Source: Trypanosoma brucei (taxonomy: Eukaryota). From it: a stretch of DNA of 64,000 nucleotides. Where the stretch lies: positions 2,176,001-2,240,000 of the forward strand of contig CM000208.1 of assembly GCA_000002445.1 (NCBI GenBank), in the 5' to 3' direction. Under the pieces are notes generated by a model. The model saw only the letters and a list, made by a program, of their open reading frames with translations. It was not told the DNA's origin and ran no database searches. Position numbers and translations under genes: made by a program. Positions 4,944-35,869 of the stretch are shown one piece after another (the first letter of the stretch is position 1; each line of letters opens with the position of its first letter).

Positions 4944-6179
4944 ATGTCTGCAACCGTCGCACAGCGCCCTTCTACGGCGCAGGAACGTATTCTTGCTTCC
5001 AACTGCCCTCCGCCGCCACCACCGCCCCCGGGATCCCCGTCGCACCGCCAGCGCGCCGCATACAACAACTTCGGCAGTGGCGTCTCCGCAATGTTTGGAT
5101 TTCAACCAACGGGCCTCGTCACCGCCATTGAAAATGAGACACAGGGACCAGTTGTCACTCGCAGGACAAAGTACCGTGACACCTCTGAGATCATTCTCGG
5201 ACCCAGCAAACCTTCTCAAATAAAGCACGGTGTCCGCCGCTATGATGGTCATGACGACTGCTCTGTGGGTTTGGCTCTTACCGACACTTGGATTCGCGGT
5301 TACGCCGATGATGAGGAGCCTCCCGCCCATGTCGTGAGGCAAAGGGGCCCGAAGGATAACCTTGAGGGAAATTGCTGCCGTGTCAAGACTGAGGAAACGA
5401 AACCACGCAAAATGCTTGCTCCAGGAAACCCACCTCCAAGGACGACAAGGCCTCCATACAGCGTTCCAGAGTATGATGGGAACAATGCTGAGGAAACCTG
5501 CCCCAAGCGCCTCTACAGGCACAAAGACAGCGGTAACATCATCTGCCCCGAGCCTTTGCCAAAGGGCACAGTTATCGATGACCGACCACGCGGAACGGTG
5601 CGCTCGCACCGCAACCGGTCGAACGAGTCTGTTGATGTACTCAACCTTGGCCAGTACAGCAGTGAGCAGCTCAATGAAGTGGAACGGAAACTCGTTGCAG
5701 GGCCTCGTGAATTCATTCCCCCTCCACTGCCTCCTCGCCAACGCCCAATCATCGCCCGTGTGCACACTCCTGCAAACGCAACCCACGACATTTTCGGTAC
5801 TGGCCAAGGTGTTGAAGATATTGAGCCAGTCCACTGCAAGAAACGCGGTGAGAGCGCCCCGAAACGCTCTGGTGAGTTTGACATCTTCGATCCCACTCCA
5901 CTACCGCAGCAACCCACGAAGGGGTACAACCCAAGCGATTTGTTGGTGTACGATGAGCCGTATGTTTCTGTGCAGGAGAAGCGTGAGAAGGCGGCTCGTG
6001 AGGCCCGTCGCAACCCTGAAAAGTATTGCCCAGGAAATGTTGTTACGTCTTCGCACAAGATAGAAAAGAAGACGGAAAGTGGCGTGGTCTTTCACTCCAA
6101 ATCTCAGGAAATCACTGCCCATGGTGGCCGTGCGCGTGGCTTGTACGCCCCAAGGGGAAGTTCAATCTCACTGTGTTAA
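4944..6179 (+). CDS. Proline-rich hypothetical protein (411 aa); possibly KHARON-like cytoskeletal/flagellar trafficking protein (tentative recollection only)
   Basis: ATG-initiated 1236-nt ORF with a poly-Pro run near the N-terminus and several PPxxP motifs. The minus-strand ORFs overlapping it are mirror read-throughs. The name is suggested only because T. brucei chromosome 10 synteny seems to fit; it cannot be verified here. Confidence 0.6.
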   Translation: MSATVAQRPSTAQERILASNCPPPPPPPPGSPSHRQRAAYNNFGSGVSAMFGFQPTGLVTAIENETQGPVVTRRTKYRDTSEIILGPSKPSQIKHGVRRYDGHDDCSVGLALTDTWIRGYADDEEPPAHVVRQRGPKDNLEGNCCRVKTEETKPRKMLAPGNPPPRTTRPPYSVPEYDGNNAEETCPKRLYRHKDSGNIICPEPLPKGTVIDDRPRGTVRSHRNRSNESVDVLNLGQYSSEQLNEVERKLVAGPREFIPPPLPPRQRPIIARVHTPANATHDIFGTGQGVEDIEPVHCKKRGESAPKRSGEFDIFDPTPLPQQPTKGYNPSDLLVYDEPYVSVQEKREKAAREARRNPEKYCPGNVVTSSHKIEKKTESGVVFHSKSQEITAHGGRARGLYAPRGSSISLC

Positions 6180-6439
6180 TTGTTGCAAAAGCAACGAAGC
6201 GTGGACGAAGTAACGGCAAACAGAACTAAGAGAGGATTTGTTTCGTTTTTTCGTTGTTTTTTTTTCGCTCTTTTTTTTTCTGTTTTGTCCGGCCCTACTC
6301 TTGGACACATGCATATGTATTTATAAATATGCGCGTGTGTCCAAAGTATCTTTGGTTGTATCTATTTTATGTAACAAGAAGTGTTCGTCTGACTGTGGGT
6401 ATATTCGGAAAGTGTGGATGCCAAGTGAAGGTGATACGC

Positions 6440-7930
6440 CTCCAATTTGAAAAGACAGAGATGTGAAGGGGGAAAAATAAGGAGTGAAGGGAAAAAGTGA
6501 ATAAACAAATGTCAAAAATCACGAAGAACGATGAGAAGTGAAGATGGGAGGTAAGGCTGGGGAAATAAAATAATGTTGAAGGTACGGAAGCTTTTCCCTT
6601 TTATCTATTTATATAAATAAATAAAAGGGGGGAAAAATGGCAAGTTTGGAATATTTCCCCGCGCTCCCACCGTTATCTTTTCTCCGTTTCTCCTTCCCCT
6701 TTGTTTCTCCACCTTTTCCTTTTTTTTTTCTTTTTTTGGTGTTTGAATCCGCCATGTTCCCCCTTCGGTACCGATCTCTGCATTTATGTGCAGAAAATAA
6801 AGGAGAGCTCAGGGAAGAATAGGCGATTTTGATGAATAAGCTTACCAACACAAGCTGAGACAAAACAACAACAACAACAAAAAGGAAAAGGAAAAGGAAA
6901 AGAAATATTGCAGGTAAAATAAATTCAAAGCAAAAAATAAAAAAAAAACAATGCAAATATGCGAAACCAACCCAGAATGAAAGAGAATATGAAGAAGGTT
7001 ATATGCTCATATTAATGAAGGTTGGGGGGATGGGGGGGAAAAAAAAGGAAGGGAACATGATGAACTGATGATATAAATTGTTAATGTATTTATTAGGTTC
7101 CACTCGTTTTCTTTATGTTGTTAAGTTTGAAGGTTGTGCACAAAAGAGCCACTTGAAAGGCATTCAACCATGGCTGAGCAGGACGGAATTGAAGGAAAGT
7201 GAGAGGGAACATGTTTTTGTATTTGTTTTTTCTTCTTTTTGTTTTACTAAAACTGAGGACCCCCCCCCCTCCCCTTGCCAGAAAAAAAAATGAAAAAAAA
7301 AGCAAGGAAGAGCTTGAAAGTGTTGCAAATACCCATATGCCAGAAAGTACTACCGCAGCAAAGAAAAAAAAATGAATGCAACATGACAGAATAAATTTGA
7401 AAAACAAAGGAAGAAGGATGAAATTTGTTTAAAAAGAAGCCGATAACTGTACGAATGAATGATTAAGTTAGTTTGTGCATGTAAGGAGGCAGAAAACGTT
7501 ATGACAGGGGGAAAAAAAGGAGAAGGGGACAAAAAAGGGGGCGGAAACGTGGAGGAATCACGCATTATAGTGACAACAACTCTTCTCCTGTCAAAAAAAA
7601 AAAAAACAAAGCAAAAAAAAAGGAAAAAGGGAAAGGAAAGAAGTAGTAGGGGATTAAAAAAAAAAAAGAAAGAGAAGAAAAAAAATATTGAGTTGGTTAA
7701 GGAGAAGCGTCCCGCTTTTGGGATATTGTACCAGGGACAAATAGCGACGCGGGGTTTGAACAAAATCAAACTAAAGAAGGGGGAAGGATCAGAAATGTAT
7801 GGGGGGTGGGGGACGAGGAGGATGGGAACAGGAAGGGAATATTATTTTAAAGAGGGGCCAGCAGAGAGAGAGAGAGAGAGAGGGTGAAAAAAAAAAAAGG
7901 AAAATGAAGTAAAAAAGACAGAGTAAACAA
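6440..7930 (+). repeat. ~1.5-kb strongly purine-rich (A/G) low-complexity tract on the coding strand
   Basis: Near-continuous G/A composition containing (AAC)n, (AAAAGG)n and (AG)n sub-repeats. It yields only K/E/G-rich pseudo-ORFs. Confidence 0.7.
7863..7882. repeat. (AG)10 microsatellite
   Basis: Uninterrupted AG run at the end of the purine-rich tract. Confidence 0.85.
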
Positions 7931-8312
7931 AGAAATGTTTACAAATATAATATATATATATATTTTATGTAATTAGTAAGGGACCTGCGGAGTCGGTGGG
8001 GTACCGTGTGACCGGGACTTTGCTGCCTTCTTCGTTACGCAAGCTAATACGAAAATACACATTAGGGACGAGTATGTGCGAGTGTGTATACGCACGTGCA
8101 GCTTTGTGTTTCGTCTCTGTTTCTATGAAGTCCGTTAAGCAGGGGAAGTAATTCGCTCATTACTCGCGACATATCCGAGGGGAAGGGCGAAAAGAAAAAA
8201 AAAGAAAAGCAGAAACAAACCCCCGAGAGATGTTAGGAACTTCCCTTTCGCCTTTCGCTCCACACCCCTGCCCCGTTATTTGTTATTTTCCTCTTTTCTC
8301 CATCCACTCATA

Positions 8313-8324
<12 letters not shown>

Positions 8325-8346
<22 letters not shown>

Positions 8347-8350
8347 TATA
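8325..8350. repeat. (TA)13 microsatellite
   Basis: Uninterrupted TA run ~50 bp upstream of direct-repeat unit A. Confidence 0.85.
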
Positions 8351-8397
8351 CTGTACCTCCTGCATTTGTCTTACGCGATGCTTGCAGGCCGCTACTG

Positions 8398-8933
8398 CTT
8401 GACGACCCATGATGCTCCCACAAGGCATATAGAGTGGTTGCCCTTATATTTCCATTCCCGTCACTATCTTCTCTCTTTTTTTCTTTTTTCTTTCCTTTTT
8501 TTCTTTCCCTGTGTTGTGTGTGTGTGTCAAACAGAAAAAGGAAACAAAGCTCCGGCAATGCTTCGTGTTTCTCGATTATCCCTTGCCATTGGCACGTACA
8601 GCCTGTTCATGAAGGAGCAAAAGAATAATCCCGCATTGAAGGGACTCCCCGTAGCAAAGCGGGGTCAGGCAACGGCTAAGTTATATCGAGAGCTTTCTGT
8701 CACTGAGCGTGAGGAATTGGCAAAGCGTGCCAAAGCTGCTCCGTCTGCAACGAGGAAAAAATCGGTACCGAAAACAAAAGGTAAAGAAAAGGTTACAGGA
8801 GGGGGAGGCAAACGTAAGGCATCGGAGTACACCGAATTTGTGAAGTCCAACATATCCAAATACAGTAATCTTCCACAACGGGAGCGCATGACTGCCGTAG
8901 CAAAGCTGTGGAAACAGCAGAAACAGATGCGAA
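8398..8933 (+). repeat. Direct repeat unit A (~536 bp) containing polyY/AG splice region plus the HMG-box CDS copy 1
   Basis: Appears base-for-base identical to 11393..11928 (offset 2995 bp) by visual alignment. Identity begins at CTTGACGACCCATGATGC and ends 5 nt before the stop codon. Confidence 0.85.
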
Positions 8934-8938
8934 AGTAG
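8558..8938 (+). CDS. Small basic HMG-box protein with MLRV mitochondrial-type presequence (kinetoplast-associated protein-like), copy 1 of a duplicated gene
   Basis: The first ATG lies after a polyY tract and an AG (8460-8535). The 126-aa product is Lys-rich. It contains an HMG-box-like segment (YSLFMKEQKNNPALKGLPVAKRGQATAKLYRELSVTEREELAKRAK) and a second partial box (SEYTEFVKSNISKYSNLPQRERMTAVAKLWKQQK). An identical copy starts at 11553. Confidence 0.75.
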   Translation: MLRVSRLSLAIGTYSLFMKEQKNNPALKGLPVAKRGQATAKLYRELSVTEREELAKRAKAAPSATRKKSVPKTKGKEKVTGGGGKRKASEYTEFVKSNISKYSNLPQRERMTAVAKLWKQQKQMRK

Positions 8939-10316
8939 ATCGAATCGCTTCATTATGCCGTGGAAAGCGGGAGTATTTTCATCTTTTTTTGTTTTTTTTT
9001 ACGTGTTGTTCACCTGGCCCGCTGTTGGAGCCAAGACATGAGTGTCTTTTTTGTTGTGGAAAGCGAGACAGAAATATGCTTTTCAAGGAAACTCACGTTC
9101 GCATAGTAGAGTCAATTTTTCAATGTCGAACTGAAAGAGGATACAAAAGATAGAGAAAAGTAGAGAAAGAGAGAGGTAGAGATAAAAAGAAACTCTTGTT
9201 TTGAAGTTTCGAATGGATATATAAGTTTCTATTTATATATCTGCTTATATCTGTCTGATAGAATTATTCATTTTCCCTTTTTTTTTATGTTGGTTGGAAG
9301 TGAGCGGATGAAGCAATATTCTTTTTTCTGTTTGTTTTACACTTCTTCGCTGACCCCTTCTATTTTTGATTCTGTTGCTAATTATAGAGGGTTTCTGTTG
9401 TGGATACTTGTGGGTGAGTGAGTGGGTTTGTATAAGTTTTTACCCTACACCTTTCACTCTACTTAGCGTGTCTTGTCGATTGCATTCTGTTCGGCAGAAT
9501 TCCCCCAACAAAAATATATTCACACCTTTTTTAAAAAAAAAAAATTGGTTCCACATCACACACATGCTGCGCACGGGATGTCAACTTTCCCAACCGACTA
9601 ACTAACTCCTCTCTATTTTTGAGCCTTTTTCCGTACCTTTGCCGTTGCTCTTCTTCTTCTTCATGTTTCTGTTGATTGTGTGCAAGATAGCTTTCACTGG
9701 TGGATTTAGGCAATTTTCAAAGGAATTGCGGTAACGGAAACATCTAACGAAGGCAGTGTGTACAGTCTCATTACTAGCATTGGCGTCTGTTTAAATCAAT
9801 AAATCAATATATATATATATTAAATTGCTTTAGTTTTGGCTCGTGTCTGTGCAGATCAGCCTTGTAGTAAAGGTGGTTACAGCACAGGGTAGGGGTCACT
9901 GAGAGAAGCATTGGAAAAAATTTACAACTGTAGTCATAACTACTTATCCATACAAGCATATACGAACATAGAGCTTTTTGTTTACTTTTTGCGTACCTCC
10001 ATAAGACGCAACCGCAGGGATCAAGTCCAACAAGGAGCGTTGAACGAAGCAACGGGAACTCGTCGGCACCGCCTTGTCGTCGGGTCTTTCTTGCGCTCGT
10101 CAGTGGTGGGAGAAAAAGGAAACATATCTTCACCACCACTTCCACGAGTTCCACTGACAGTTTGGTCACTTGCAACCGGTCGCACTATAGAATTTTTACT
10201 ATCACAGAAATATAGCTGTGGAGCATCGTAGTTGCATAACTGTTTATTTCTTTTTCGTCGTCGCACAAGAACAGCAATTAGGAGGGTGAAGAACACGTGC
10301 TACATTATCTTCTCGC

Positions 10317-11030
10317 ATGTTGCGTTTTACGGTTGCGCTGTGCAGCATTCGCAAAATGGCTTTAAAGCTCTTCCGCGATGAGCAATTACATAGTGCTAAC
10401 CTGCAGGGTCTCTCGATGGCTCAGAAGCGAAAAGTTATTGAAAAGAAGTTTAATCATCTTGGACGGAATGAGATGAGAGTTCTGAGACAGCGGGCTCGTG
10501 AAATGCATGACAATGTGGTGTTAGCGGCGGGTGCGGGTGCGGGTGCGGGTAAGGGTGATTTTCAACCAAGACACCCAAAGATAACCGCATATGAACTGTT
10601 CTTTAAGGAACAGTCATCAAACCCATCCATATCTTCCATTACATCCCCCAGACTGCGCGAGAAGCGAGTTTTTGCCATATTTCAAACATTACCCGAGAAG
10701 ACACGAAAACAATTGGAAGAGAGGGCTGAGCAACTCTCACAAAGCGGTGGGCAACGGAAAATTTCCCCCGCTGTAAAGGTACCAAAACCAAAGAAGGAAA
10801 TACAGACAAAGGCATCGAAGAAGGCGCCCACCAAACGAACTGCAGCTAAGAAAAAGCAGAAACCTTCTACTTACAGGGCGTTTGTAAAGGAACAAATGCC
10901 TCTCTTAAAGCACCTTCCGCCGGCTGAACGCATTAAAACCATCGCAAAGAAGTGGAAGGCACAAAAGGGTGAGAAGAAACCTACCAAACGGACTGGACCA
11001 TCTGAGAACAAGGCAGCAGGCAAAAAATAA
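10317..11030 (+). CDS. Two-HMG-box basic protein with MLRF presequence (237 aa; KAP-like, cf. two-HMG-box kinetoplast proteins such as KAP6)
   Basis: ATG start. There are two HMG-box-like segments (ITAYELFFKEQSSNPS... and STYRAFVKEQMPLLKHLPPAERIKTIAKKWKAQK) and a Lys-rich C-terminus. The gene contains a (GGTGCG)4 hexamer repeat that encodes AGAGAGAG. Confidence 0.75.
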   Translation: MLRFTVALCSIRKMALKLFRDEQLHSANLQGLSMAQKRKVIEKKFNHLGRNEMRVLRQRAREMHDNVVLAAGAGAGAGKGDFQPRHPKITAYELFFKEQSSNPSISSITSPRLREKRVFAIFQTLPEKTRKQLEERAEQLSQSGGQRKISPAVKVPKPKKEIQTKASKKAPTKRTAAKKKQKPSTYRAFVKEQMPLLKHLPPAERIKTIAKKWKAQKGEKKPTKRTGPSENKAAGKK

Positions 11031-11392
11031 CCCAAATGGGTTTTGTCCAGCCTCGGACTTTTTGTTTGTTTTGAACGGCCATTGAAGGCTCATGGGAAAG
11101 AGAGAGTGGAATATCGAAGAATAGCTGCAGCAGTTGGCACAACAAACTCCCGTGTAACTTTATGCACGCTGTTAGAGGGGTGACTCATAGGTAATGCGCA
11201 GAGCATATGCGAATATGTACGGTGGTGCTAGCATGGCTTGTCAAGAAGGAAAATAGGACCACCGCCACTGTACATTTGTCACATTCAAAATATGTTGCCA
11301 TTCTCATTAAATCGAAGTTGTTAAAACTTTTGTGCTGGTGGAAGAATTTCAGCAGTATGACTTCTTTCTGCTGCGTGGTTTAGTGTATTTTA

Positions 11393-11928
11393 CTTGACGA
11401 CCCATGATGCTCCCACAAGGCATATAGAGTGGTTGCCCTTATATTTCCATTCCCGTCACTATCTTCTCTCTTTTTTTCTTTTTTCTTTCCTTTTTTTCTT
11501 TCCCTGTGTTGTGTGTGTGTGTCAAACAGAAAAAGGAAACAAAGCTCCGGCAATGCTTCGTGTTTCTCGATTATCCCTTGCCATTGGCACGTACAGCCTG
11601 TTCATGAAGGAGCAAAAGAATAATCCCGCATTGAAGGGACTCCCCGTAGCAAAGCGGGGTCAGGCAACGGCTAAGTTATATCGAGAGCTTTCTGTCACTG
11701 AGCGTGAGGAATTGGCAAAGCGTGCCAAAGCTGCTCCGTCTGCAACGAGGAAAAAATCGGTACCGAAAACAAAAGGTAAAGAAAAGGTTACAGGAGGGGG
11801 AGGCAAACGTAAGGCATCGGAGTACACCGAATTTGTGAAGTCCAACATATCCAAATACAGTAATCTTCCACAACGGGAGCGCATGACTGCCGTAGCAAAG
11901 CTGTGGAAACAGCAGAAACAGATGCGAA
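11393..11928 (+). repeat. Direct repeat unit B (~536 bp), copy of 8398..8933
   Basis: See unit A. Divergence starts at ...GCGAA|AGTAG (copy A) versus ...GCGAA|GTAAG (copy B). Confidence 0.85.
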
Positions 11929-11936
11929 GTAAGTGA
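11553..11936 (+). CDS. Small basic HMG-box protein, copy 2 (identical to copy 1 except the C-terminal ...MRSK vs ...MRK)
   Basis: Lies inside the second ~536-bp direct repeat. The protein is identical to the 8558 copy up to the last 2-3 codons. Confidence 0.75.
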   Translation: MLRVSRLSLAIGTYSLFMKEQKNNPALKGLPVAKRGQATAKLYRELSVTEREELAKRAKAAPSATRKKSVPKTKGKEKVTGGGGKRKASEYTEFVKSNISKYSNLPQRERMTAVAKLWKQQKQMRSK

Positions 11937-12610
11937 TATTCTTCACCTACTGTCACTATGGTGTTGGTCGTTTCCCTAACAATAGAAACTGAGCTTGTCA
12001 CAGCACTTGATACGAAGCGTGTTACAGGTAACTGAGTGTAGTTTCGAACACGTTTACTCGAGTCGGTACGTGGAAGTCGTAAAGTTAGACATTACGTGAA
12101 ATGTTGCAATCCGGCGGTAGCGCTGCCGCAACAGTTTGTTTAATCACCCACAAGCCGAAGGGGTACAGGAACGTGTGAGGGCAAAGAAAATAAAAATAAA
12201 AAAGAGATACATAGAACAAAAAAAACAGATATTCCGGAAGCACGAGCAAAAGCCGAGAGTGGGGCGTACTTAGAACGAAATAGATAGAAACGTGGGTCGC
12301 CACCCCCTTCGCTCCTACTGCATCACTCATATACCTGAAAATACAATCGAAAATGACATGATGCAGCTGTAGCTGCGGTGCATACTATGTTTATTGTTAT
12401 TTTGTACCGCCTTATATATTTGATTCACTTTGTATCACTACTTTTGCCTCATTTGCTTTTCTTCCCCCAACTGTGTAATGGAGGTGCCCACCACCTACAC
12501 ATCCAACCAAGTTAGCAGCAAGGTTATTTGAAGCTATACTCTCCGTTACAAAGTTGATTAAGTAACGCATATTTTTGTTCAGGAAATCCTTTAATAATCG
12601 ATAGGAAGTG

Positions 12611-13120
12611 ATGTTGCGCTTTACACGTTTTGTTGCTGCTGCTGTGAAGAGCGGCGTTGGCAAAAAAGCCGCTAAGACACCACTGCCTGTGGGGAATGCT
12701 GCGAGTGCCAGACGTGGCGCCCGTGTTGATGCCATTCCGTTTAATGACAATGTGTCTGTACCTAAGGTAAATGCCAAAAAGATGGTACCACCTCCAAGTG
12801 TAAGCAACATTGGCAAAGAAAAGGCTGTTTCTTCCATGAAGGCGAGGGGAGGTGCCAAAGTTAATGCGAAACCACTGGCATCCTTAGGAAAGGTTACGAG
12901 TGAGAAGCCAAGTGGCAAGGTAAAGAAGACGCCGTCACCTACGAGGAAACCAACAGAACCTATTACTGTGGTGGAGACATCCTCCGGTAGGAAGGGTGGT
13001 AACAAGGCTGCGTCTTTGGCACCGAAGTTGAAGAAAACTGTGAAGCAAATCCACCGTAAGGTCATGCAAAAAAATGCTGGCCGTAAGCCCAAGAAGGCGA
13101 TGGGTAAGGCGAGTGCTTAA
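12611..13120 (+). CDS. Lys/Ala-rich basic protein with MLRF presequence (169 aa; histone H1-like kinetoplast-associated protein-like, cf. KAP3)
   Basis: The track start at 12608 is GTG and the ATG is at 12611. Composition is K/A/P/S-rich and strongly basic. The N-terminus MLRFTRFVAAAV is presequence-like. The 226-aa antisense ORF 12412..13092 is rejected. Confidence 0.6.
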   Translation: MLRFTRFVAAAVKSGVGKKAAKTPLPVGNAASARRGARVDAIPFNDNVSVPKVNAKKMVPPPSVSNIGKEKAVSSMKARGGAKVNAKPLASLGKVTSEKPSGKVKKTPSPTRKPTEPITVVETSSGRKGGNKAASLAPKLKKTVKQIHRKVMQKNAGRKPKKAMGKASA

Positions 13121-34078: not shown

Positions 34079-35869
34079 ATGACCGCGAGGTTCACTGCCC
34101 TCTGTGAAGAACTAAGTCGTTTACAGGTGCGTGCGTTACGTCGTGATGGGAATCCATTAGATATCGCCGTGGAGGCTATTCGAGCGATTCGGATCAACCG
34201 CGATAGTATCGAGCCTTTGCGGCAAAATATCCCGCATGTGCCACTCTTCTTAAGGAGCTGCGCAACTCTTCTCAGTCGTTCGGTGACCTCTGAAGCGGAC
34301 GATGCTATCGAATCCACAGGAAGGCTCGCGGAGGTGTACGTTGGTGGCAATCACGGCGATGTTAATGACTCGGCGGCGGTACTTCAGTCTTTGGTGCAGT
34401 TGTCTCGCGTTCGGTGCGAAAGAGCAGCATGTGTTGGCGATGCTGCCAAGGTGTTATCCTCCTCGTTGAAACCGTTAGTGCCTGCGGCTCTGCATAATAC
34501 CTTGCAGAAGTGGCAGCAACATAAGGTGCGCCCACACACGTCAAGCCTCCTGTCGCTTTTGCGGGGAACAGACGCAGTGTATGGTGGGAGCTTTCAGTTT
34601 ACCCCGGTTGGGGCAGATATGATGGGCTTGCTTCCTATCAAAAGTAAGGTGCAAATGGAAGCAAAAATGCAAAAGTGCGAGCACTCACGCGATATTCTTC
34701 GAGCTCTGTGTGAAATGCAATTCTCAAAACTTGACGCAGGTATATGTTTGACCAGCCAAGCTGAATGTGGGTTTTACCAGTCCGAGCTGTGTAATATTTG
34801 TTGTGAAGTTCTCTTCTCCACTCACGCACTGATGACCAGTCAGCAGTTAGCACAGGTTGTCCACAGCCTCGGTGTTCTTCAGCATCGACATATCCACCAA
34901 AAGTTCTTTTCGAGTCTGATCGACTTCAAGAATTGTAACGCAGAAGCGGTACGACAGCACATAATGGGGCTCGCCATGCTTCGTCAGCCGCCACCCAATG
35001 ACCGTCGTTTGATGGATGGGGTATTTCTGCATGTCTTCCGCCCAACTGATCCTCTTGATTACGATTCCTCACCAGAGGCTGCCCTTTCACCGGGATGGTT
35101 CGTAGATGTGGGTCACGCACTTACCTGTCTAGGAATCACACATCACAAATATCGTTTGACAATGGCCCGAACGGTTCGGAGAAGTATCGCTTCCATGTCC
35201 ACGCAGGAGCGCTGCAAGTTGTTGTATGGTCTTGGTGGCGTCTCACTAGATTCTGTGCCGGCGGAACTTCAGGGGTCATGGAAGGGGAAAGTGATTCGGA
35301 CAATTGAGGTATTGGAGCAAAGACTTCGCAGCAATGTTGATCCGGTGGATGGGCCGTCCGTTATGCACGCACTGTTGTTTGCTGGTATACGCGAACACCC
35401 AATGATTCCTCAGCAGCCTGACTTGGCGTCGAACGAGAATCCGGTGGAAACTCTGCTCCGGACTTGGGCCACTTGCCCGAGGGAGCGTGTGTTATACTTG
35501 ACGGAACAAATACGCCCCAGTCATCTGGGGAGCGATCCCGCGACGACATTGTCACACGTCTGTGGTATCATAGCTAACAATTGTGGTGGTGTGGGTACTG
35601 ATTCGTACCGTTTTGGGCCACTATGTGATGTTATACGCACTCATGGGGGTTCCATGACTGTTGATGAAGCAATGAGCACGATTGAGGCTATCGAACGGAT
35701 GAAGGCGGGGGACCGATTTAGTGGTGCTTTGGTCAGCCTTCTGGGAAGTTTGTGGAATCAACGAGAGAGTATGACACCAGAACAACGAATGCGCTGTTGC
35801 CGCTTGTTGGAGAACGTGGGACACTTGGAAATAGCGGTTAACCTTCTTGACTACATTGTCTCTCAATAG
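34079..35869 (+). CDS. Hypothetical Leu-rich helical protein (~596 aa)
   Basis: The track start at 34025 is TTG and the first ATG is at 34079 (MTARFTALCEEL...). Complex composition for 1.8 kb. Confidence 0.55.
   Translation: MTARFTALCEELSRLQVRALRRDGNPLDIAVEAIRAIRINRDSIEPLRQNIPHVPLFLRSCATLLSRSVTSEADDAIESTGRLAEVYVGGNHGDVNDSAAVLQSLVQLSRVRCERAACVGDAAKVLSSSLKPLVPAALHNTLQKWQQHKVRPHTSSLLSLLRGTDAVYGGSFQFTPVGADMMGLLPIKSKVQMEAKMQKCEHSRDILRALCEMQFSKLDAGICLTSQAECGFYQSELCNICCEVLFSTHALMTSQQLAQVVHSLGVLQHRHIHQKFFSSLIDFKNCNAEAVRQHIMGLAMLRQPPPNDRRLMDGVFLHVFRPTDPLDYDSSPEAALSPGWFVDVGHALTCLGITHHKYRLTMARTVRRSIASMSTQERCKLLYGLGGVSLDSVPAELQGSWKGKVIRTIEVLEQRLRSNVDPVDGPSVMHALLFAGIREHPMIPQQPDLASNENPVETLLRTWATCPRERVLYLTEQIRPSHLGSDPATTLSHVCGIIANNCGGVGTDSYRFGPLCDVIRTHGGSMTVDEAMSTIEAIERMKAGDRFSGALVSLLGSLWNQRESMTPEQRMRCCRLLENVGHLEIAVNLLDYIVSQ

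What the first reader, a model, noticed from the sequence alone, without database searches (positions are those of the whole stretch)
8558..13120. Cluster of four small basic nucleic-acid-binding proteins sharing an MLR(V/F) N-terminal presequence (KAP-like locus)
Four consecutive genes encode small, Lys-rich proteins: two identical single-HMG-box proteins, one two-HMG-box protein and one Lys/Ala-rich H1-like protein. The three distinct families begin MLRVSRLSL.., MLRFTVALCSIRK.. and MLRFTRFVAAAV... Short cleavable MLR-type presequences and K/A-rich or HMG-box bodies are the defining traits of kinetoplast-associated proteins that package kDNA. A physical cluster of these genes suggests local duplication and divergence of kinetoplast chromatin proteins.
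Basis: partly seen in the sequence, partly recalled or inferred. Interest (0 to 1): 0.5.

Follow-up and report, generated by a model that had tools for sequence, protein, structure and literature searches.

The report
Known trypanosome kinetoplast-protein gene cluster (KAP4–KAP7–KAP4)

Summary
The window is T. brucei brucei TREU927 chromosome 10, shown by exact protein matches. The four ORFs exist at the stated coordinates.

- **Genes 1–3.** They are XP_823119, XP_823120 and XP_823121. Cavalcanti et al. 2009 already named them TbKAP4.1, TbKAP7 and TbKAP4.2, described the KAP4–KAP7–KAP4 arrangement and proposed gene conversion.
- **Gene 4.** It is XP_823122, which is Tb927.10.8980 by gene numbering. 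It was not called a KAP in 2009, but it has since been tagged and seen at the kDNA.
- **KAP6 and KAP3.** Neither lies in the cluster: KAP6 is Tb927.10.8890 and KAP3 is on chromosome 11.

- The two KAP4 copies are identical over 536 bp (5'UTR and CDS) but end differently, MRK versus MRSK.
- No protein reaches any Pfam HMG threshold. AlphaFold models matched almost only HMG-box structures, though weakly.
- KAP4 has one three-helix box plus a C-terminal two-helix half-box. KAP7 has two boxes plus the half-box.
- Gene 4 is Lys/Ala-rich with no detectable domain. It shows no similarity to KAP4 or KAP7 beyond the presequence.

Small additions:
- Gene 4 has positional counterparts in other trypanosomes that share only the N-terminus.
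- Its copy number varies between species.

Verdict: already known, low interest.

The parts
8558..8938 (+). TbKAP4.1 coding sequence (126 aa, 14.2 kDa, pI 10.8). By numbering this is Tb927.10.8950. The database model XP_823119 is 186 aa because it starts at an upstream ATG (8378).
   Evidence: ORF and translation. The exact 126-aa sequence is in the protein collection and clusters with XP_823119/EAN78291. Named TbKap4.1 in PMC2700280 additional file 1. Orthologues at 55-64% identity, named KAP4 or kinetoplast DNA-associated protein.
10317..11030 (+). TbKAP7 coding sequence (237 aa, 26.9 kDa, pI 10.9). By numbering this is Tb927.10.8960.
   Evidence: Exact match to XP_823120/EAN78292/Q38A78. 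Listed as TbKap7 (26.9 kDa, pI 10.9): with the same values computed. Homologous to KAP4. 39-42% identical to the syntenic T. cruzi, T. theileri, T. melophagium and T. vivax proteins.
11553..11936 (+). TbKAP4.2 coding sequence (127 aa, 14.3 kDa, pI 10.8). By numbering this is Tb927.10.8970.
   Evidence: Exact match to EAN78293. TbKap4.2 (XP_823121, 14.3 kDa, pI 10.8).
12611..13120 (+). Tb927.10.8980 coding sequence (169 aa, 17.6 kDa, pI 11.7). It is a Lys/Ala/Pro/Ser/Gly-rich basic protein with an MLRFTRFVA presequence and no recognisable domain.
   Evidence: Exact match to XP_823122/EAN78294/Q38A76. The gene number is inferred from consecutive accessions, anchored at Kharon = Tb927.10.8940 and KAP6 XP_823113 = Tb927.10.8890. 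kDNA localisation and RNAi phenotype. Dependence on TAC102, HMG44 and KAP68. No Pfam hit. The only sequence relative is T. congolense P0025.
8398..8933 (+). Copy 1 of the 536-bp tract that is identical between the two KAP4 genes. It covers 160 nt upstream of the ATG (pyrimidine tract, AG, 5'UTR) and the CDS up to the last codon or two. It is a probable gene-conversion tract.
   Evidence: blastn and MAFFT: no mismatches, sharp edges, flanks that cannot be aligned.
11393..11928 (+). Copy 2 of the 536-bp identical tract.
8467..8534 (+). Uninterrupted pyrimidine tract (8467-8510), a (TG)n run and the first downstream AG (8533-8534). This is the probable trans-splicing acceptor of KAP4.1, 23 nt before the ATG at 8558. 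The identical element for KAP4.2 lies at 11462-11529.
   Evidence: Sequence read directly. Identity of the two copies. Use as a splice site is inferred; it was not tested.
8585..8743 (+). KAP4 box 1 (aa ~10-62), a predicted three-helix HMG-like module. The same residues in KAP4.2 are at 11580-11738.
   Evidence: AF2 model helices 13-20, 32-44 and 48-60, pLDDT 82-88. Foldseek top 50 are all HMG-box chains. T. cruzi orthologue HMG_box_2 at 18.4 bits against a 22.4 cut-off over aa 6-61.
8819..8932 (+). KAP4 C-terminal two-helix module (aa ~88-125, SEYTEFVK...LPQRERMTAVAKLWKQQK). It resembles HMG helices 1-2 and the YABBY domain, and has no third helix. The same residues in KAP4.2 are at 11814-11927.
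   Evidence: AF2 helices 90-102 and 107-125, pLDDT ~90. Orthologue YABBY hits in 7 of 11 members, best 27.9 bits against a 28.6 cut-off.
10347..10532 (+). KAP7 box A (aa ~11-72), a predicted three-helix module. It aligns to KAP4 aa 1-59.
   Evidence: AF2 helices 11-23, 34-46 and 50-72. BLASTP E 5e-4.
10578..10742 (+). KAP7 box B (aa ~88-142), a predicted three-helix module. It aligns to KAP4 box 1.
   Evidence: AF2 helices 91-99, 111-123 and 127-142. BLASTP alignment of KAP4 11-122 to KAP7 89-217, E 4e-12. Foldseek.
10863..10973 (+). KAP7 C-terminal two-helix module (aa ~183-219, STYRAFVKEQ...PPAERIKTIAKKWKAQK). It is the counterpart of the KAP4 C-terminal module.
   Evidence: AF2 helices 185-197 and 202-219. 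Alignment. Weak YABBY match at aa 164-213, E 0.5.
10527..10550 (+). (GCGGGT)4 hexanucleotide repeat inside KAP7, encoding AGAGAGAG in the linker between boxes A and B. It is one unit shorter in T. b. gambiense, T. b. equiperdum and Logan versions (235 aa).
   Evidence: TRF. Protein alignment. Cluster members.

Best explanation
The region is the KAP4.1-KAP7-KAP4.2 cluster of T. brucei chromosome 10 plus the adjacent kDNA protein gene Tb927.10.8980.

**Expression and import.** All four genes sit in one + strand polycistronic unit. Each mRNA is presumably trans-spliced at an AG after a pyrimidine tract (inferred). Each protein carries a short M-L-R-(V/F)-(S/T) N-terminal presequence of the kind that is cleaved on import into the kinetoplast-bearing mitochondrion. 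Cleavage was shown for the C. fasciculata KAPs and is inferred here.

**KAP4 and KAP7.** They are divergent HMG-box-like DNA-binding proteins:
- KAP4 has one three-helix box, a Lys-rich linker and a C-terminal two-helix half-box.
- KAP7 has the same plan with an extra N-terminal box.

By analogy with CfKAP4, TbKAP6, TFAM and Abf2p, they would bind and bend kDNA and neutralise its charge. That would contribute to condensation of the network and to its remodelling during replication (inferred; not tested for the T. brucei proteins).

**Tb927.10.8980.** It is a very basic protein that is probably largely disordered. It resides at the kDNA, and its retention in flagellar extracts depends on TAC102, HMG44 and KAP68. 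The most likely role is a charge-neutralising or bridging component at the kDNA face. Homology to KAP4/KAP7 is not shown.

**Concerted evolution.** The two KAP4 genes are kept identical by gene conversion over a 536-bp tract that covers the 5'UTR and CDS but not the 3' flank.
For: **Identity**
- Exact protein matches to T. b. brucei TREU927 chromosome 10 entries EAN78290-78295 and EAN78303.
- Published names TbKap4.1, TbKap7 and TbKap4.2 with matching MW and pI, and a published description of KAP7 lying between KAP4a and KAP4b.

**Presequence**
- Read directly from the sequence.
- The same rule (M-L-R, hydroxylated residue 5, hydrophobic residue 9; 9 aa cleaved in C. fasciculata) is described in PMC2700280.
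- Four of four cluster genes start MLR, against none of the other large ORFs.

**Homology of KAP4 and KAP7:**

**HMG-like fold**
- AF2 models have mean pLDDT 74.5 and 71.9, with the structured modules at 79-93.
- For KAP4, all top 50 Foldseek PDB matches are HMG-box chains. Examples: HMGB1 tandem E 0.055; Abf2p; TFAM; single boxes at rmsd 1.4-1.7 A over ~50 columns.
- For KAP7 the list is likewise dominated by HMG boxes. Examples: HMGB1 tandem E 0.025, prob 0.96; SSRP1 HMG rmsd 1.5 A over 65 columns.
- The KAP4 profile's best PDB sequence hits are an HMG protein and TFAM, at E 0.4-0.6.
- Orthologues give sub-threshold YABBY, HMG_box and HMG_box_2 hits.

**Kinetoplast residence**
- TcKAP4 immunolocalisation and CfKAP properties.
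- KAP4 and KAP7 mutant phenotypes in A. deanei and T. cruzi.
- Tb927.10.8980 tagged at the kDNA, with a growth defect on RNAi. It is depleted after TAC102, HMG44 and KAP68 RNAi.

**Gene conversion**
- A 536-bp tract with no mismatch and sharp edges.
- KAP4 paralogues are closer within a species than between species: 99% in T. brucei, 82-87% in T. cruzi, 85-88% in T. melophagium and 86-95% in T. theileri, against 57-75% between distant species. Between the sister species T. melophagium and T. theileri the values are 76-91%, so one cross-species pair (4b, 91%) exceeds the within-species values.

**Synteny:** Kharon - KAP4 - KAP7 - KAP4 (- KAP4c) - small basic gene - orthologue of the 418-aa gene, in T. 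cruzi, T. melophagium and T. theileri. T. vivax has the same upstream genes, one KAP4, KAP7 and then an array of the small basic gene.
Against: - No Pfam HMG family is reached at its curated threshold by any of the four proteins or any orthologue.
- No Foldseek match has E<=0.001, so the HMG assignment rests on predicted structure and on the consistency of weak hits.
- The KAP7 model used only three sequences.
- No DNA-binding, import, cleavage or localisation data for T. brucei KAP4 or KAP7 were found in the held literature. Searches gave only proteomic mentions.
- RNAi of Tb927.10.8980 did not visibly affect kDNA, which argues against a major packaging role for gene 4.
- Gene 4 is assigned to Tb927.10.8980 by consecutive numbering, not by a direct identifier.
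Confidence: 0.9

Rival explanations
1. Gene 4 (Tb927.10.8980) is a diverged tandem duplicate of KAP4. On this reading the whole four-gene cluster descends from one HMG-box ancestor, and the box was lost in the salivarian lineage.
For: - It directly follows the last KAP4 copy in every species examined and shares the MLR-type presequence.
- The positional counterparts in T. cruzi, T. melophagium and T. theileri carry the motif Y-x-R-F-Y...M...LWRAT.
- hhalign places that motif in register with the KAP4 C-terminal half-box (Y-x-x-F-V-K...R-x-x-A-x-A-K-L-W).
Against: - The hhalign match is not significant (E 0.13, probability 0.5%).
- Smith-Waterman scores of gene-4 proteins against KAP4 are within composition-matched shuffles (z <= 2.7).
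- BLASTP of gene 4 against KAP4 and KAP7 finds only the presequence.
- Pfam finds nothing in the stercorarian counterparts.
- Once the first 14 residues are removed, T. brucei gene 4 is no more similar to the T. vivax or stercorarian counterparts than shuffled sequence (z <= 1.2). Even orthology across that divide therefore rests on position and N-terminus alone.
Confidence: 0.2
2. Tb927.10.8980 is not a DNA-packaging protein. It is instead a structural component of the interface between the kDNA and the tripartite attachment complex, recruited through HMG44 and KAP68.
For: - It is one of only three proteins depleted from flagellar extracts after RNAi of TAC102, of HMG44 and of KAP68.
- It was found in the TAC42 depletion screen, and in the TAC53 pulldown at p > 0.05.
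- RNAi gives a growth defect without a visible kDNA change.
Against: - The authors concluded that it does not meet the criteria for a TAC subunit.
- Its extreme basicity (pI 11.7) and lack of any predicted domain fit non-specific nucleic-acid binding equally well.
- The two roles are not mutually exclusive.
Confidence: 0.3
3. The four proteins are nuclear chromatin proteins (HMGB-like and H1-like), and the shared N-terminus is coincidental.
For: They are basic, Lys-rich and HMG-like in fold, as nuclear HMGB and H1 proteins are.
Against: - All start with the KAP-type presequence, and none of the other large ORFs in the window does.
- Orthologues were localised to the kinetoplast.
- No linker-histone globular domain was found.
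- The genes are the published TbKAP4 and TbKAP7.
Confidence: 0.02

Closest known systems
KAP4 of Crithidia fasciculata / Trypanosoma cruzi / Angomonas deanei (kinetoplast-associated protein 4)
   Same: Genes 1 and 3 are the published T. brucei members (TbKap4.1 and TbKap4.2). They share the presequence, the size (~14 kDa) and the pI (~10.8), and are 55-64% identical to other Trypanosoma KAP4 proteins. Two or three paralogues flank or follow KAP7 in Trypanosoma.
   Different: T. brucei has two copies, against three in T. cruzi, T. melophagium and T. theileri and one in T. vivax. The T. brucei pair is homogenised to 100% over 536 bp. The held literature contains no functional study of the T. brucei proteins.
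KAP7 (Cavalcanti et al. 2009; functional work in T. cruzi and A. deanei, PMC12395728)
   Same: Gene 2 is TbKap7 (XP_823120). It is adjacent to KAP4 in all genomes, has the presequence, and is 39-42% identical to the syntenic proteins of other trypanosomes.
   Different: The 2009 tree placed KAP7 uncertainly, near KAP1. Here it aligns directly with KAP4 over the whole KAP4 body (E 4e-12), with an extra N-terminal box. That makes it a KAP4 derivative with an added box.
TbKAP6 (Tb927.10.8890), a two-HMG-box kDNA protein essential for kDNA replication
   Same: It is a basic mitochondrial HMG-box protein of the same chromosome region, reported as related to KAP4. Its T. congolense counterpart P0011 was retrieved with KAP4 at 36% identity.
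   Different: It is not one of the four genes. It lies five genes upstream of Kharon1, outside the window. Its essentiality, stimulation of topoisomerase II decatenation and in vitro condensation were shown for KAP6 only.
Mitochondrial HMG-box packaging proteins TFAM (mammals) and Abf2p (yeast); nuclear HMGB1
   Same: They are among the best structural matches of both models and the best sequence-profile matches in the PDB. Shared features are tandem boxes, mitochondrial targeting and a DNA packaging role.
   Different: Sequence similarity is below every curated threshold. The last module lacks helix 3. The presequence is much shorter (~9 aa).
YABBY domain (PF04690), a plant helix-loop-helix domain resembling HMG helices 1-2
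   Same: The C-terminal two-helix module of KAP4 orthologues matches it, in 7 of 11 members with a best score of 27.9 bits. One T. melophagium KAP4 is even annotated 'YABBY protein'.
   Different: The matches are below the gathering score of 28.6. There is no zinc finger and the proteins are not plant proteins. The resemblance is one of shape and motif, not family membership.
Histone H1-like KAPs (CfKAP1-3, TbKAP3 = Tb927.11.16400)
   Same: Gene 4 shares the Lys/Ala-rich composition, the high pI and the presequence.
   Different: No sequence similarity was detected to anything except the T. congolense counterpart. KAP3 is encoded on chromosome 11.

Membership tests
KAP4 (kinetoplast-associated protein 4) | Sequence orthology to named KAP4 proteins | tested here: met
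   Genes 1 and 3 fall in the same 90% cluster as XP_823119, and gene 3 is identical to EAN78293. These are TbKap4.1 and TbKap4.2 in PMC2700280. They are 55-64% identical to the T. congolense, T. vivax ('Kinetoplast-associated protein 4'), T. cruzi, T. theileri and T. grayi proteins.
KAP4 (kinetoplast-associated protein 4) | Short N-terminal M-L-R presequence (9 aa, cleaved in C. fasciculata) | tested here: met
   MLRVSRLSL is present, and M1, R3 and L9 are invariant in 11 orthologues. Cleavage itself cannot be tested with these tools.
KAP4 (kinetoplast-associated protein 4) | Small, highly basic, Lys/Ala-rich | tested here: met
   14.2-14.3 kDa, pI 10.8, K 16.7%, A 10.3%.
KAP4 (kinetoplast-associated protein 4) | Localisation to the kinetoplast and binding or condensation of kDNA | not testable with these tools
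   Shown for CfKAPs and TcKAP4. For T. brucei KAP4 there is only proteomic detection in flagellum/kDNA extracts.
KAP7 | Identity with, or orthology to, the published KAP7 set, and position next to KAP4 | tested here: met
   Gene 2 is XP_823120, which is TbKap7. It lies between the two KAP4 genes, and the syntenic proteins in four other species are 39-42% identical.
HMG box (Pfam PF00505 HMG_box / PF09011 HMG_box_2) | Sequence match at the family's curated (gathering) score | tested here: not met
   There is no HMG hit at E<=1 for any of the four window proteins. The best orthologue hits are HMG_box_2 at 18.4 bits against a 22.4 cut-off and HMG_box at E 0.02.
HMG box (fold level) | Three-helix L-shaped fold superposable on solved HMG boxes | tested here: inconclusive
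   The AF2 modules have three helices at pLDDT 82-90. All top 50 Foldseek PDB matches for KAP4 and most of the top 50 for KAP7 are HMG boxes, with rmsd 1.4-1.7 A over 50-65 columns and probability up to 0.98. However, every E-value is above 0.01, and the models are predictions.
YABBY domain (PF04690) | Match at gathering score, together with a C2C2 zinc finger | tested here: not met
   The best score is 27.9 bits against a 28.6 cut-off, in an orthologue. The window proteins give E 0.5 or nothing. No zinc-finger cysteines are present in the sequences.
Linker histone H1 / H1-like KAPs | H1 globular (winged-helix) domain, or detectable similarity to KAP1-3 | tested here: not met
   Gene 4 has no Pfam hit. 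phmmer against 1.84 billion representatives finds only itself and the T. congolense counterpart. Only the composition is H1-like.
Kinetoplast-resident protein (for gene 4) | Experimental localisation to the kDNA | not testable with these tools
   Literature: Tb927.10.8980 was tagged in situ and localised to the kDNA (PMC12453217). The link from gene 4 to that identifier is by consecutive accession and gene numbering.

The most novel reading that the evidence does not exclude
**Proposed reading.** The gene after the last KAP4 copy (Tb927.10.8980 and its positional counterparts) is a fifth, extremely fast-evolving member of the KAP cluster.
- It keeps only its import presequence, M-(L/M)-x-(F/L)-T-R, and its genomic slot across Trypanosoma.
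- In stercorarian species it carries an HMG-half-box-like motif (Y-x-R-F-Y...LWRAT). In salivarian species the mature part has been replaced or has diverged into a domain-less basic chain.
- In salivarian species its copy number is labile: at least 4 tandem copies in T. vivax, 2 in T. congolense, 2 in T. b. gambiense and 1 in TREU927.

**What it would mean.** The kDNA-TAC interface would then contain a dosage-sensitive, lineage-specific basic protein derived from the KAP4 family.

**Evidence.**
- Position and flanks.
- N-termini.
- Arrays and copy numbers.
- Motif alignment, not significant.
- Shuffle tests.
Probability: 0.3. Interest if true: 0.35.

Novelty: already known. Interest (0 to 1): 0.15.

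Why it matters
**Background.** kDNA is one of the most unusual genome structures known. The proteins that pack it and link it to the segregation machinery are still incompletely described in T. brucei, where only KAP6 has been studied in depth.

**Practical points for work on this locus**
- The two KAP4 genes share identical coding sequence and 5'UTR. Any RNAi or CDS-based tagging hits both copies; only the 3' flanks distinguish them.
- The 186-aa database model of KAP4.1 almost certainly starts too far upstream.
- KAP4 and KAP7 share one modular plan, 1 or 2 full boxes plus a half-box. This suggests testable differences in DNA bending and bridging.
- Tb927.10.8980 belongs physically to this cluster and varies in copy number between species.

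None of this changes the current picture of kDNA biology.

Tried and rejected
1. **Pfam on the four proteins.** Only chance-level hits appeared (S1FA, DUF6170, GeBP-like_C, YABBY at E 0.5), and no HMG family.
2. **KAP4 profile against PDB sequences.** The best hits are an HMG protein and TFAM, but at E 0.37-0.6, so they are not significant.
3. **Word-indexed homologue searches.** For KAP7 and gene 4 these returned only near-identical sequences and one T. congolense protein. Exhaustive phmmer for gene 4 added only the T. congolense counterpart; a third hit is a repetitive unrelated protein that I regard as spurious.
4. **Is gene 4 derived from KAP4?** BLASTP, hhalign and shuffle-controlled Smith-Waterman were all non-significant. 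I therefore rejected it as a claim and kept it as a rival.
5. **A frameshifted HMG-like motif in the T. brucei gene-4 region.** tblastn with the T. cruzi and T. melophagium counterparts found none in any frame.
6. **Further KAP relics or pseudogenes in the window.** tblastn with 24 KAP-cluster proteins found none outside the four genes.
7. **Literature gaps.** The primary TbKAP6 paper (PMC4135736) is not held. The supplements of PMC10374059 contained none of the gene identifiers.
8. **Candidate identities for genes in the cluster.** I considered whether gene 2 might be TbKAP6, and rejected it because KAP6 is XP_823113 = Tb927.10.8890. I considered whether gene 4 might be KAP3, and rejected it because KAP3 is Tb927.11.16400.

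Full report
**1. What is in the sequence**

Four + strand ORFs lie at 8558-8938 (126 aa), 10317-11030 (237 aa), 11553-11936 (127 aa) and 12611-13120 (169 aa). Their N-termini are MLRVSRLSL, MLRFTVALC, MLRVSRLSL and MLRFTRFVA. They are 14.2, 26.9, 14.3 and 17.6 kDa, with pI 10.8, 10.9, 10.8 and 11.7 and 16-18% lysine. None of the other 23 large ORFs whose first ATG could be read starts with MLR. The shared N-terminus is therefore a property of this cluster, not of the genome at large. All large ORFs in the window are on the + strand, as expected for one trypanosomatid polycistronic unit.

**2. Where the window comes from and what the genes are called**

Exact-sequence look-ups place the window on the 4.05-Mb chromosome 10 of T. 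brucei brucei TREU927.

| Window ORF | Accessions | Identity |
|---|---|---|
| 4944-6179 | EAN78290 | 'flagellum targeting protein kharon1' |
| gene 1 | EAN78291 / XP_823119 | annotated at 186 aa |
| gene 2 | EAN78292 / XP_823120 / Q38A78 | |
| gene 3 | EAN78293 | |
| gene 4 | EAN78294 / XP_823122 / Q38A76 | 'hypothetical protein, conserved' |

Additional file 1 of Cavalcanti et al. 2009 (PMC2700280) lists the published names:
- XP_823119 is TbKap4.1.
- XP_823120 is TbKap7, at 26.9 kDa and pI 10.9.
- XP_823121 is TbKap4.2, at 14.3 kDa and pI 10.8.
- XP_823113 is TbKap6.

[quoted passage not shown] It proposes one duplication followed by homogenisation through gene conversion, and it flags a probable start-codon error for TbKAP4a.

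Gene numbers follow from two anchor points. TbKH is Tb927.10.8940, and TbKAP6 is Tb927.10.8890, which is XP_823113. Counting in steps of ten, the four genes are Tb927.10.8950, 8960, 8970 and 8980. This step is an inference.

TbKAP6 therefore lies five genes upstream of Kharon1 and outside the window. TbKAP3 is Tb927.11.16400 on another chromosome.

**3. The two KAP4 copies**

blastn and MAFFT show that 8398-8933 is identical to 11393-11928. The tract is 536 bp with no mismatches, and the flanks on both sides cannot be aligned.

The tract starts 160 nt upstream of the ATG and ends within the last codons, so the proteins end MRK* and MRSK*. It contains three upstream elements:
- an uninterrupted 44-nt pyrimidine tract (8467-8510);
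- a (TG)n run;
- the first AG at 8533-8534, 23 nt before the ATG.

This is the usual layout of a trans-splicing acceptor, although its use as one is inferred. The ATG used by the 186-aa database model (8378) lies upstream of this signal and outside the duplicated tract. Copy 2 has no equivalent ATG. The 126-aa ORF is therefore the likelier product, in agreement with the 2009 remark.

KAP4 paralogues are more alike within a species than between distant species:

| Comparison | Protein identity |
|---|---|
| within T. brucei | 99% |
| within T. cruzi | 82-87% |
| within T. melophagium | 85-88% |
| within T. theileri | 86-95% |
| between distant species | 57-75% |

Between the sister species T. 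melophagium and T. theileri the values are 76-91%, so one cross-species pair (4b, 91%) exceeds the within-species values. Overall the pattern fits recurrent gene conversion.

**4. Architecture of KAP4 and KAP7**

BLASTP aligns KAP4 residues 11-122 with KAP7 residues 89-217 (32% identity, E 4e-12). It also aligns KAP4 1-59 with KAP7 1-61 (E 5e-4). KAP7 thus looks like a KAP4 body preceded by an extra copy of the first module.

Sequence-level tests for an HMG box all fall short:
- Pfam gives no HMG family for any window protein, even at E<=1.
- Among eleven KAP4-type sequences, YABBY is hit in 7 (best 27.9 bits, cut-off 28.6, on the C-terminal module).
- HMG_box is hit in 3 (best E 0.02), and HMG_box_2 in 2 (18.4 bits, cut-off 22.4, on the first module).
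- A profile of the eleven sequences finds an HMG protein (2mrc) and TFAM as best PDB sequence matches, but at E 0.37-0.6.

AlphaFold2 models:

| Protein | Input alignment | Mean pLDDT | Predicted helices |
|---|---|---|---|
| KAP4 | 11 sequences | 74.5 | 13-20, 32-44, 48-60 (pLDDT 82-88); disordered linker 66-84; 90-102, 107-125 (pLDDT ~90) |
| KAP7 | 3 sequences | 71.9 | modules 11-72, 91-142 and 185-219 |

Foldseek against the PDB returns no match at E<=0.001. Even so, the match lists are dominated by HMG-box chains:
- For KAP4 all top 50 matches are HMG-box chains. They include HMGB1 tandem boxes at E 0.055, Abf2p, TFAM, and single boxes at rmsd 1.4-1.7 A over about 50 columns.
- For KAP7 most of the top 50 are HMG boxes. 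They include HMGB1 tandem at E 0.025 with probability 0.96, and the SSRP1 HMG domain at rmsd 1.5 A over 65 columns with probability 0.98.

My reading is as follows:
- KAP4 has one full HMG-like box plus a C-terminal half-box. The half-box comprises helices 1-2 and carries the most canonical Y-x-x-F...P-x-x-E-R...W-K signature.
- KAP7 has two full boxes plus the half-box.
- Membership of the Pfam families is not met.
- Fold-level resemblance is consistent, but it rests on predictions and weak statistics.

**5. Gene 4**

Gene 4 has no Pfam match and no similarity to KAP4 or KAP7 apart from the first ten residues.

Exhaustive phmmer against 1.84 billion representatives finds only two real hits:
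- its own cluster;
- one 161-aa T. congolense protein (TCIL3000_10_7750; 37% identity, E 4.6e-16).

The literature on Tb927.10.8980 says the following.
- It is one of three proteins lost from flagellar extracts after RNAi of TAC102, HMG44 and KAP68 (PMC10374059).
- It localises to the kDNA when tagged in situ (PMC12453217).
- Its RNAi gives a growth defect without a visible kDNA change, and it does not meet the criteria for a TAC subunit (PMC12453217).

It is therefore a kDNA-resident basic protein, but not a demonstrated packaging factor. 'H1-like' describes its composition only.

**6. Synteny**

Loci were retrieved through KAP4 orthologues.

| Species | Gene order |
|---|---|
| T. cruzi | Kharon - KAP4 - KAP7 - KAP4 - KAP4 - 192-aa basic gene - orthologue of the 418-aa gene |
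| T. melophagium and T. theileri | the same order, with a 170-aa basic gene |
| T. vivax | Kharon - one KAP4 - KAP7 (not called in that assembly; L003 9917-10678) - at least four copies of a 179-aa gene in a 1485-bp tandem array at 99.3-99.7% identity |

The flanking genes are true orthologues. Kharon is 45-62% identical across species, and the 418-aa gene is 40-44% identical.

The basic genes after the last KAP4 copy share the N-terminus M-(L/M)-x-(F/L)-T-R-(F/V/L) with gene 4. Once the first 14 residues are removed, T. brucei gene 4 is no more similar to the T. vivax or stercorarian proteins than to shuffled versions of them (z <= 1.2). The T. brucei-T. congolense pair (z 18.6) and the stercorarian trio (z 12-34) are each clearly related.

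The stercorarian proteins carry a motif, Y-x-R-F-Y...M...LWRAT. hhalign puts it in register with the KAP4 half-box, but without significance (E 0.13).

The database holds two accessions for the identical gene-4 protein in T. b. gambiense (CBH16006 and CBH16007) and in T. congolense (CCC94000 and CCC94001). Copy number therefore seems to vary between lineages.

**7. How it most likely works**

Shown here:
- gene identities;
- the presequence motif;
- homology of KAP4 and KAP7;
- the conversion tract;
- synteny.

Taken from the literature:
- nine-residue cleavable presequences, kinetoplast localisation and kDNA condensation for the C. fasciculata KAPs, and kinetoplast localisation of TcKAP4;
- effects of KAP4 and KAP7 mutants on kDNA arrangement, replication and damage response in A. 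deanei and T. cruzi;
- KAP6 biochemistry;
- Tb927.10.8980 localisation.

Inferred:
- T. brucei KAP4 and KAP7 are imported, trimmed and bound to kDNA through their HMG-like boxes and lysine-rich linkers. In that state they would bend DNA and neutralise its charge, as TFAM and Abf2p do.
- Gene 4 acts as a largely unstructured polycation at the kDNA face.

**8. Verdict**

The ORFs, the presequences and the basic composition hold. The claims of identical proteins, the box counts and the Pfam-level HMG call do not.
- The interpretation as a KAP locus shaped by local duplication is supported.
- The locus has been in the literature since 2009, and the fourth gene was characterised in 2023-2025.
- The additions made here are minor: the modular plan of KAP4 and KAP7, the exact conversion tract, and the positional counterparts and copy-number variation of gene 4.
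- Novelty is 'already known' and interest is low.

Noticed in passing
window 34079-35869 (+): This 596-aa, 65.9-kDa ORF is EAN78303/XP_823131. By consecutive numbering it is Tb927.10.9070, the protein named KP66 in bioRxiv 10.1101/2024.04.22.590512, which is dually localised to the kinetoplast and the mitochondrial lumen. The ~50-kb stretch from KAP6 to this gene therefore encodes at least six kinetoplast proteins.
   Followed up: partly
window 8378-8557 (+): The TREU927 and DAL972 database models of KAP4.1 are 186 aa because they start at ATG 8378. That ATG lies upstream of the pyrimidine tract and AG, and outside the tract shared with KAP4.2. The extension translates the pyrimidine tract itself (LSFFLFSFLFFFP...) and is probably an annotation artefact.
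   Followed up: yes
window 10527-10550 (+): The (GCGGGT)4 repeat inside KAP7 encodes AGAGAGAG. It is one unit shorter in T. b. gambiense, T. b. equiperdum and Logan-derived sequences (235 aa against 237 aa). It is thus an in-frame microsatellite polymorphism in the linker between the two boxes.
   Followed up: partly
L003 11294-16375 (T. vivax, GCA_021307395.1 SOPI01000024.1): A tandem array holds at least four copies (period ~1485 bp, 99.3-99.7% identity) of a 179-aa Arg/Ala/Ser-rich protein starting MLCFTRFVAAAARR. This protein is the positional counterpart of gene 4. The array runs off the end of the fetched locus, so the full copy number is unknown.
   Followed up: partly
L003 9917-10678 (T. 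vivax): A 253-aa KAP7 orthologue is present but was not called as a gene in this assembly. It is called in a second T. vivax assembly (L004 2431-3192).
   Followed up: yes
L001 9818-10396, L002 12419-12931, L005 9881-10393: The T. cruzi, T. melophagium and T. theileri genes in the gene-4 position share a conserved motif, Y-x-R-F-Y-x-A-L...G-x-V-x-G...M...L-W-R-A-T...R-V-x-A-A, that is absent from the T. brucei, T. congolense and T. vivax proteins. It resembles an HMG half-box, but neither Pfam nor hhalign supports that.
   Followed up: partly
P0004 (T. melophagium KAP4b, L002 10474-10854): This KAP4 paralogue is named 'YABBY protein' in NCBI and UniProt, evidently from a sub-threshold Pfam YABBY match (27.9 bits against a 28.6 cut-off). 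The name is misleading for a kinetoplast protein.
   Followed up: yes
window 6200-8350 (+): The long gap between Kharon1 and KAP4.1 is low-complexity sequence. It has T-rich runs, then A/G-rich runs (GC skew 0.27 and AT skew 0.21 for 6001-8000), then (AG)10 and (AT)13 microsatellites. The ORFs listed there translate simple repeats and are unlikely to be genes.
   Followed up: no
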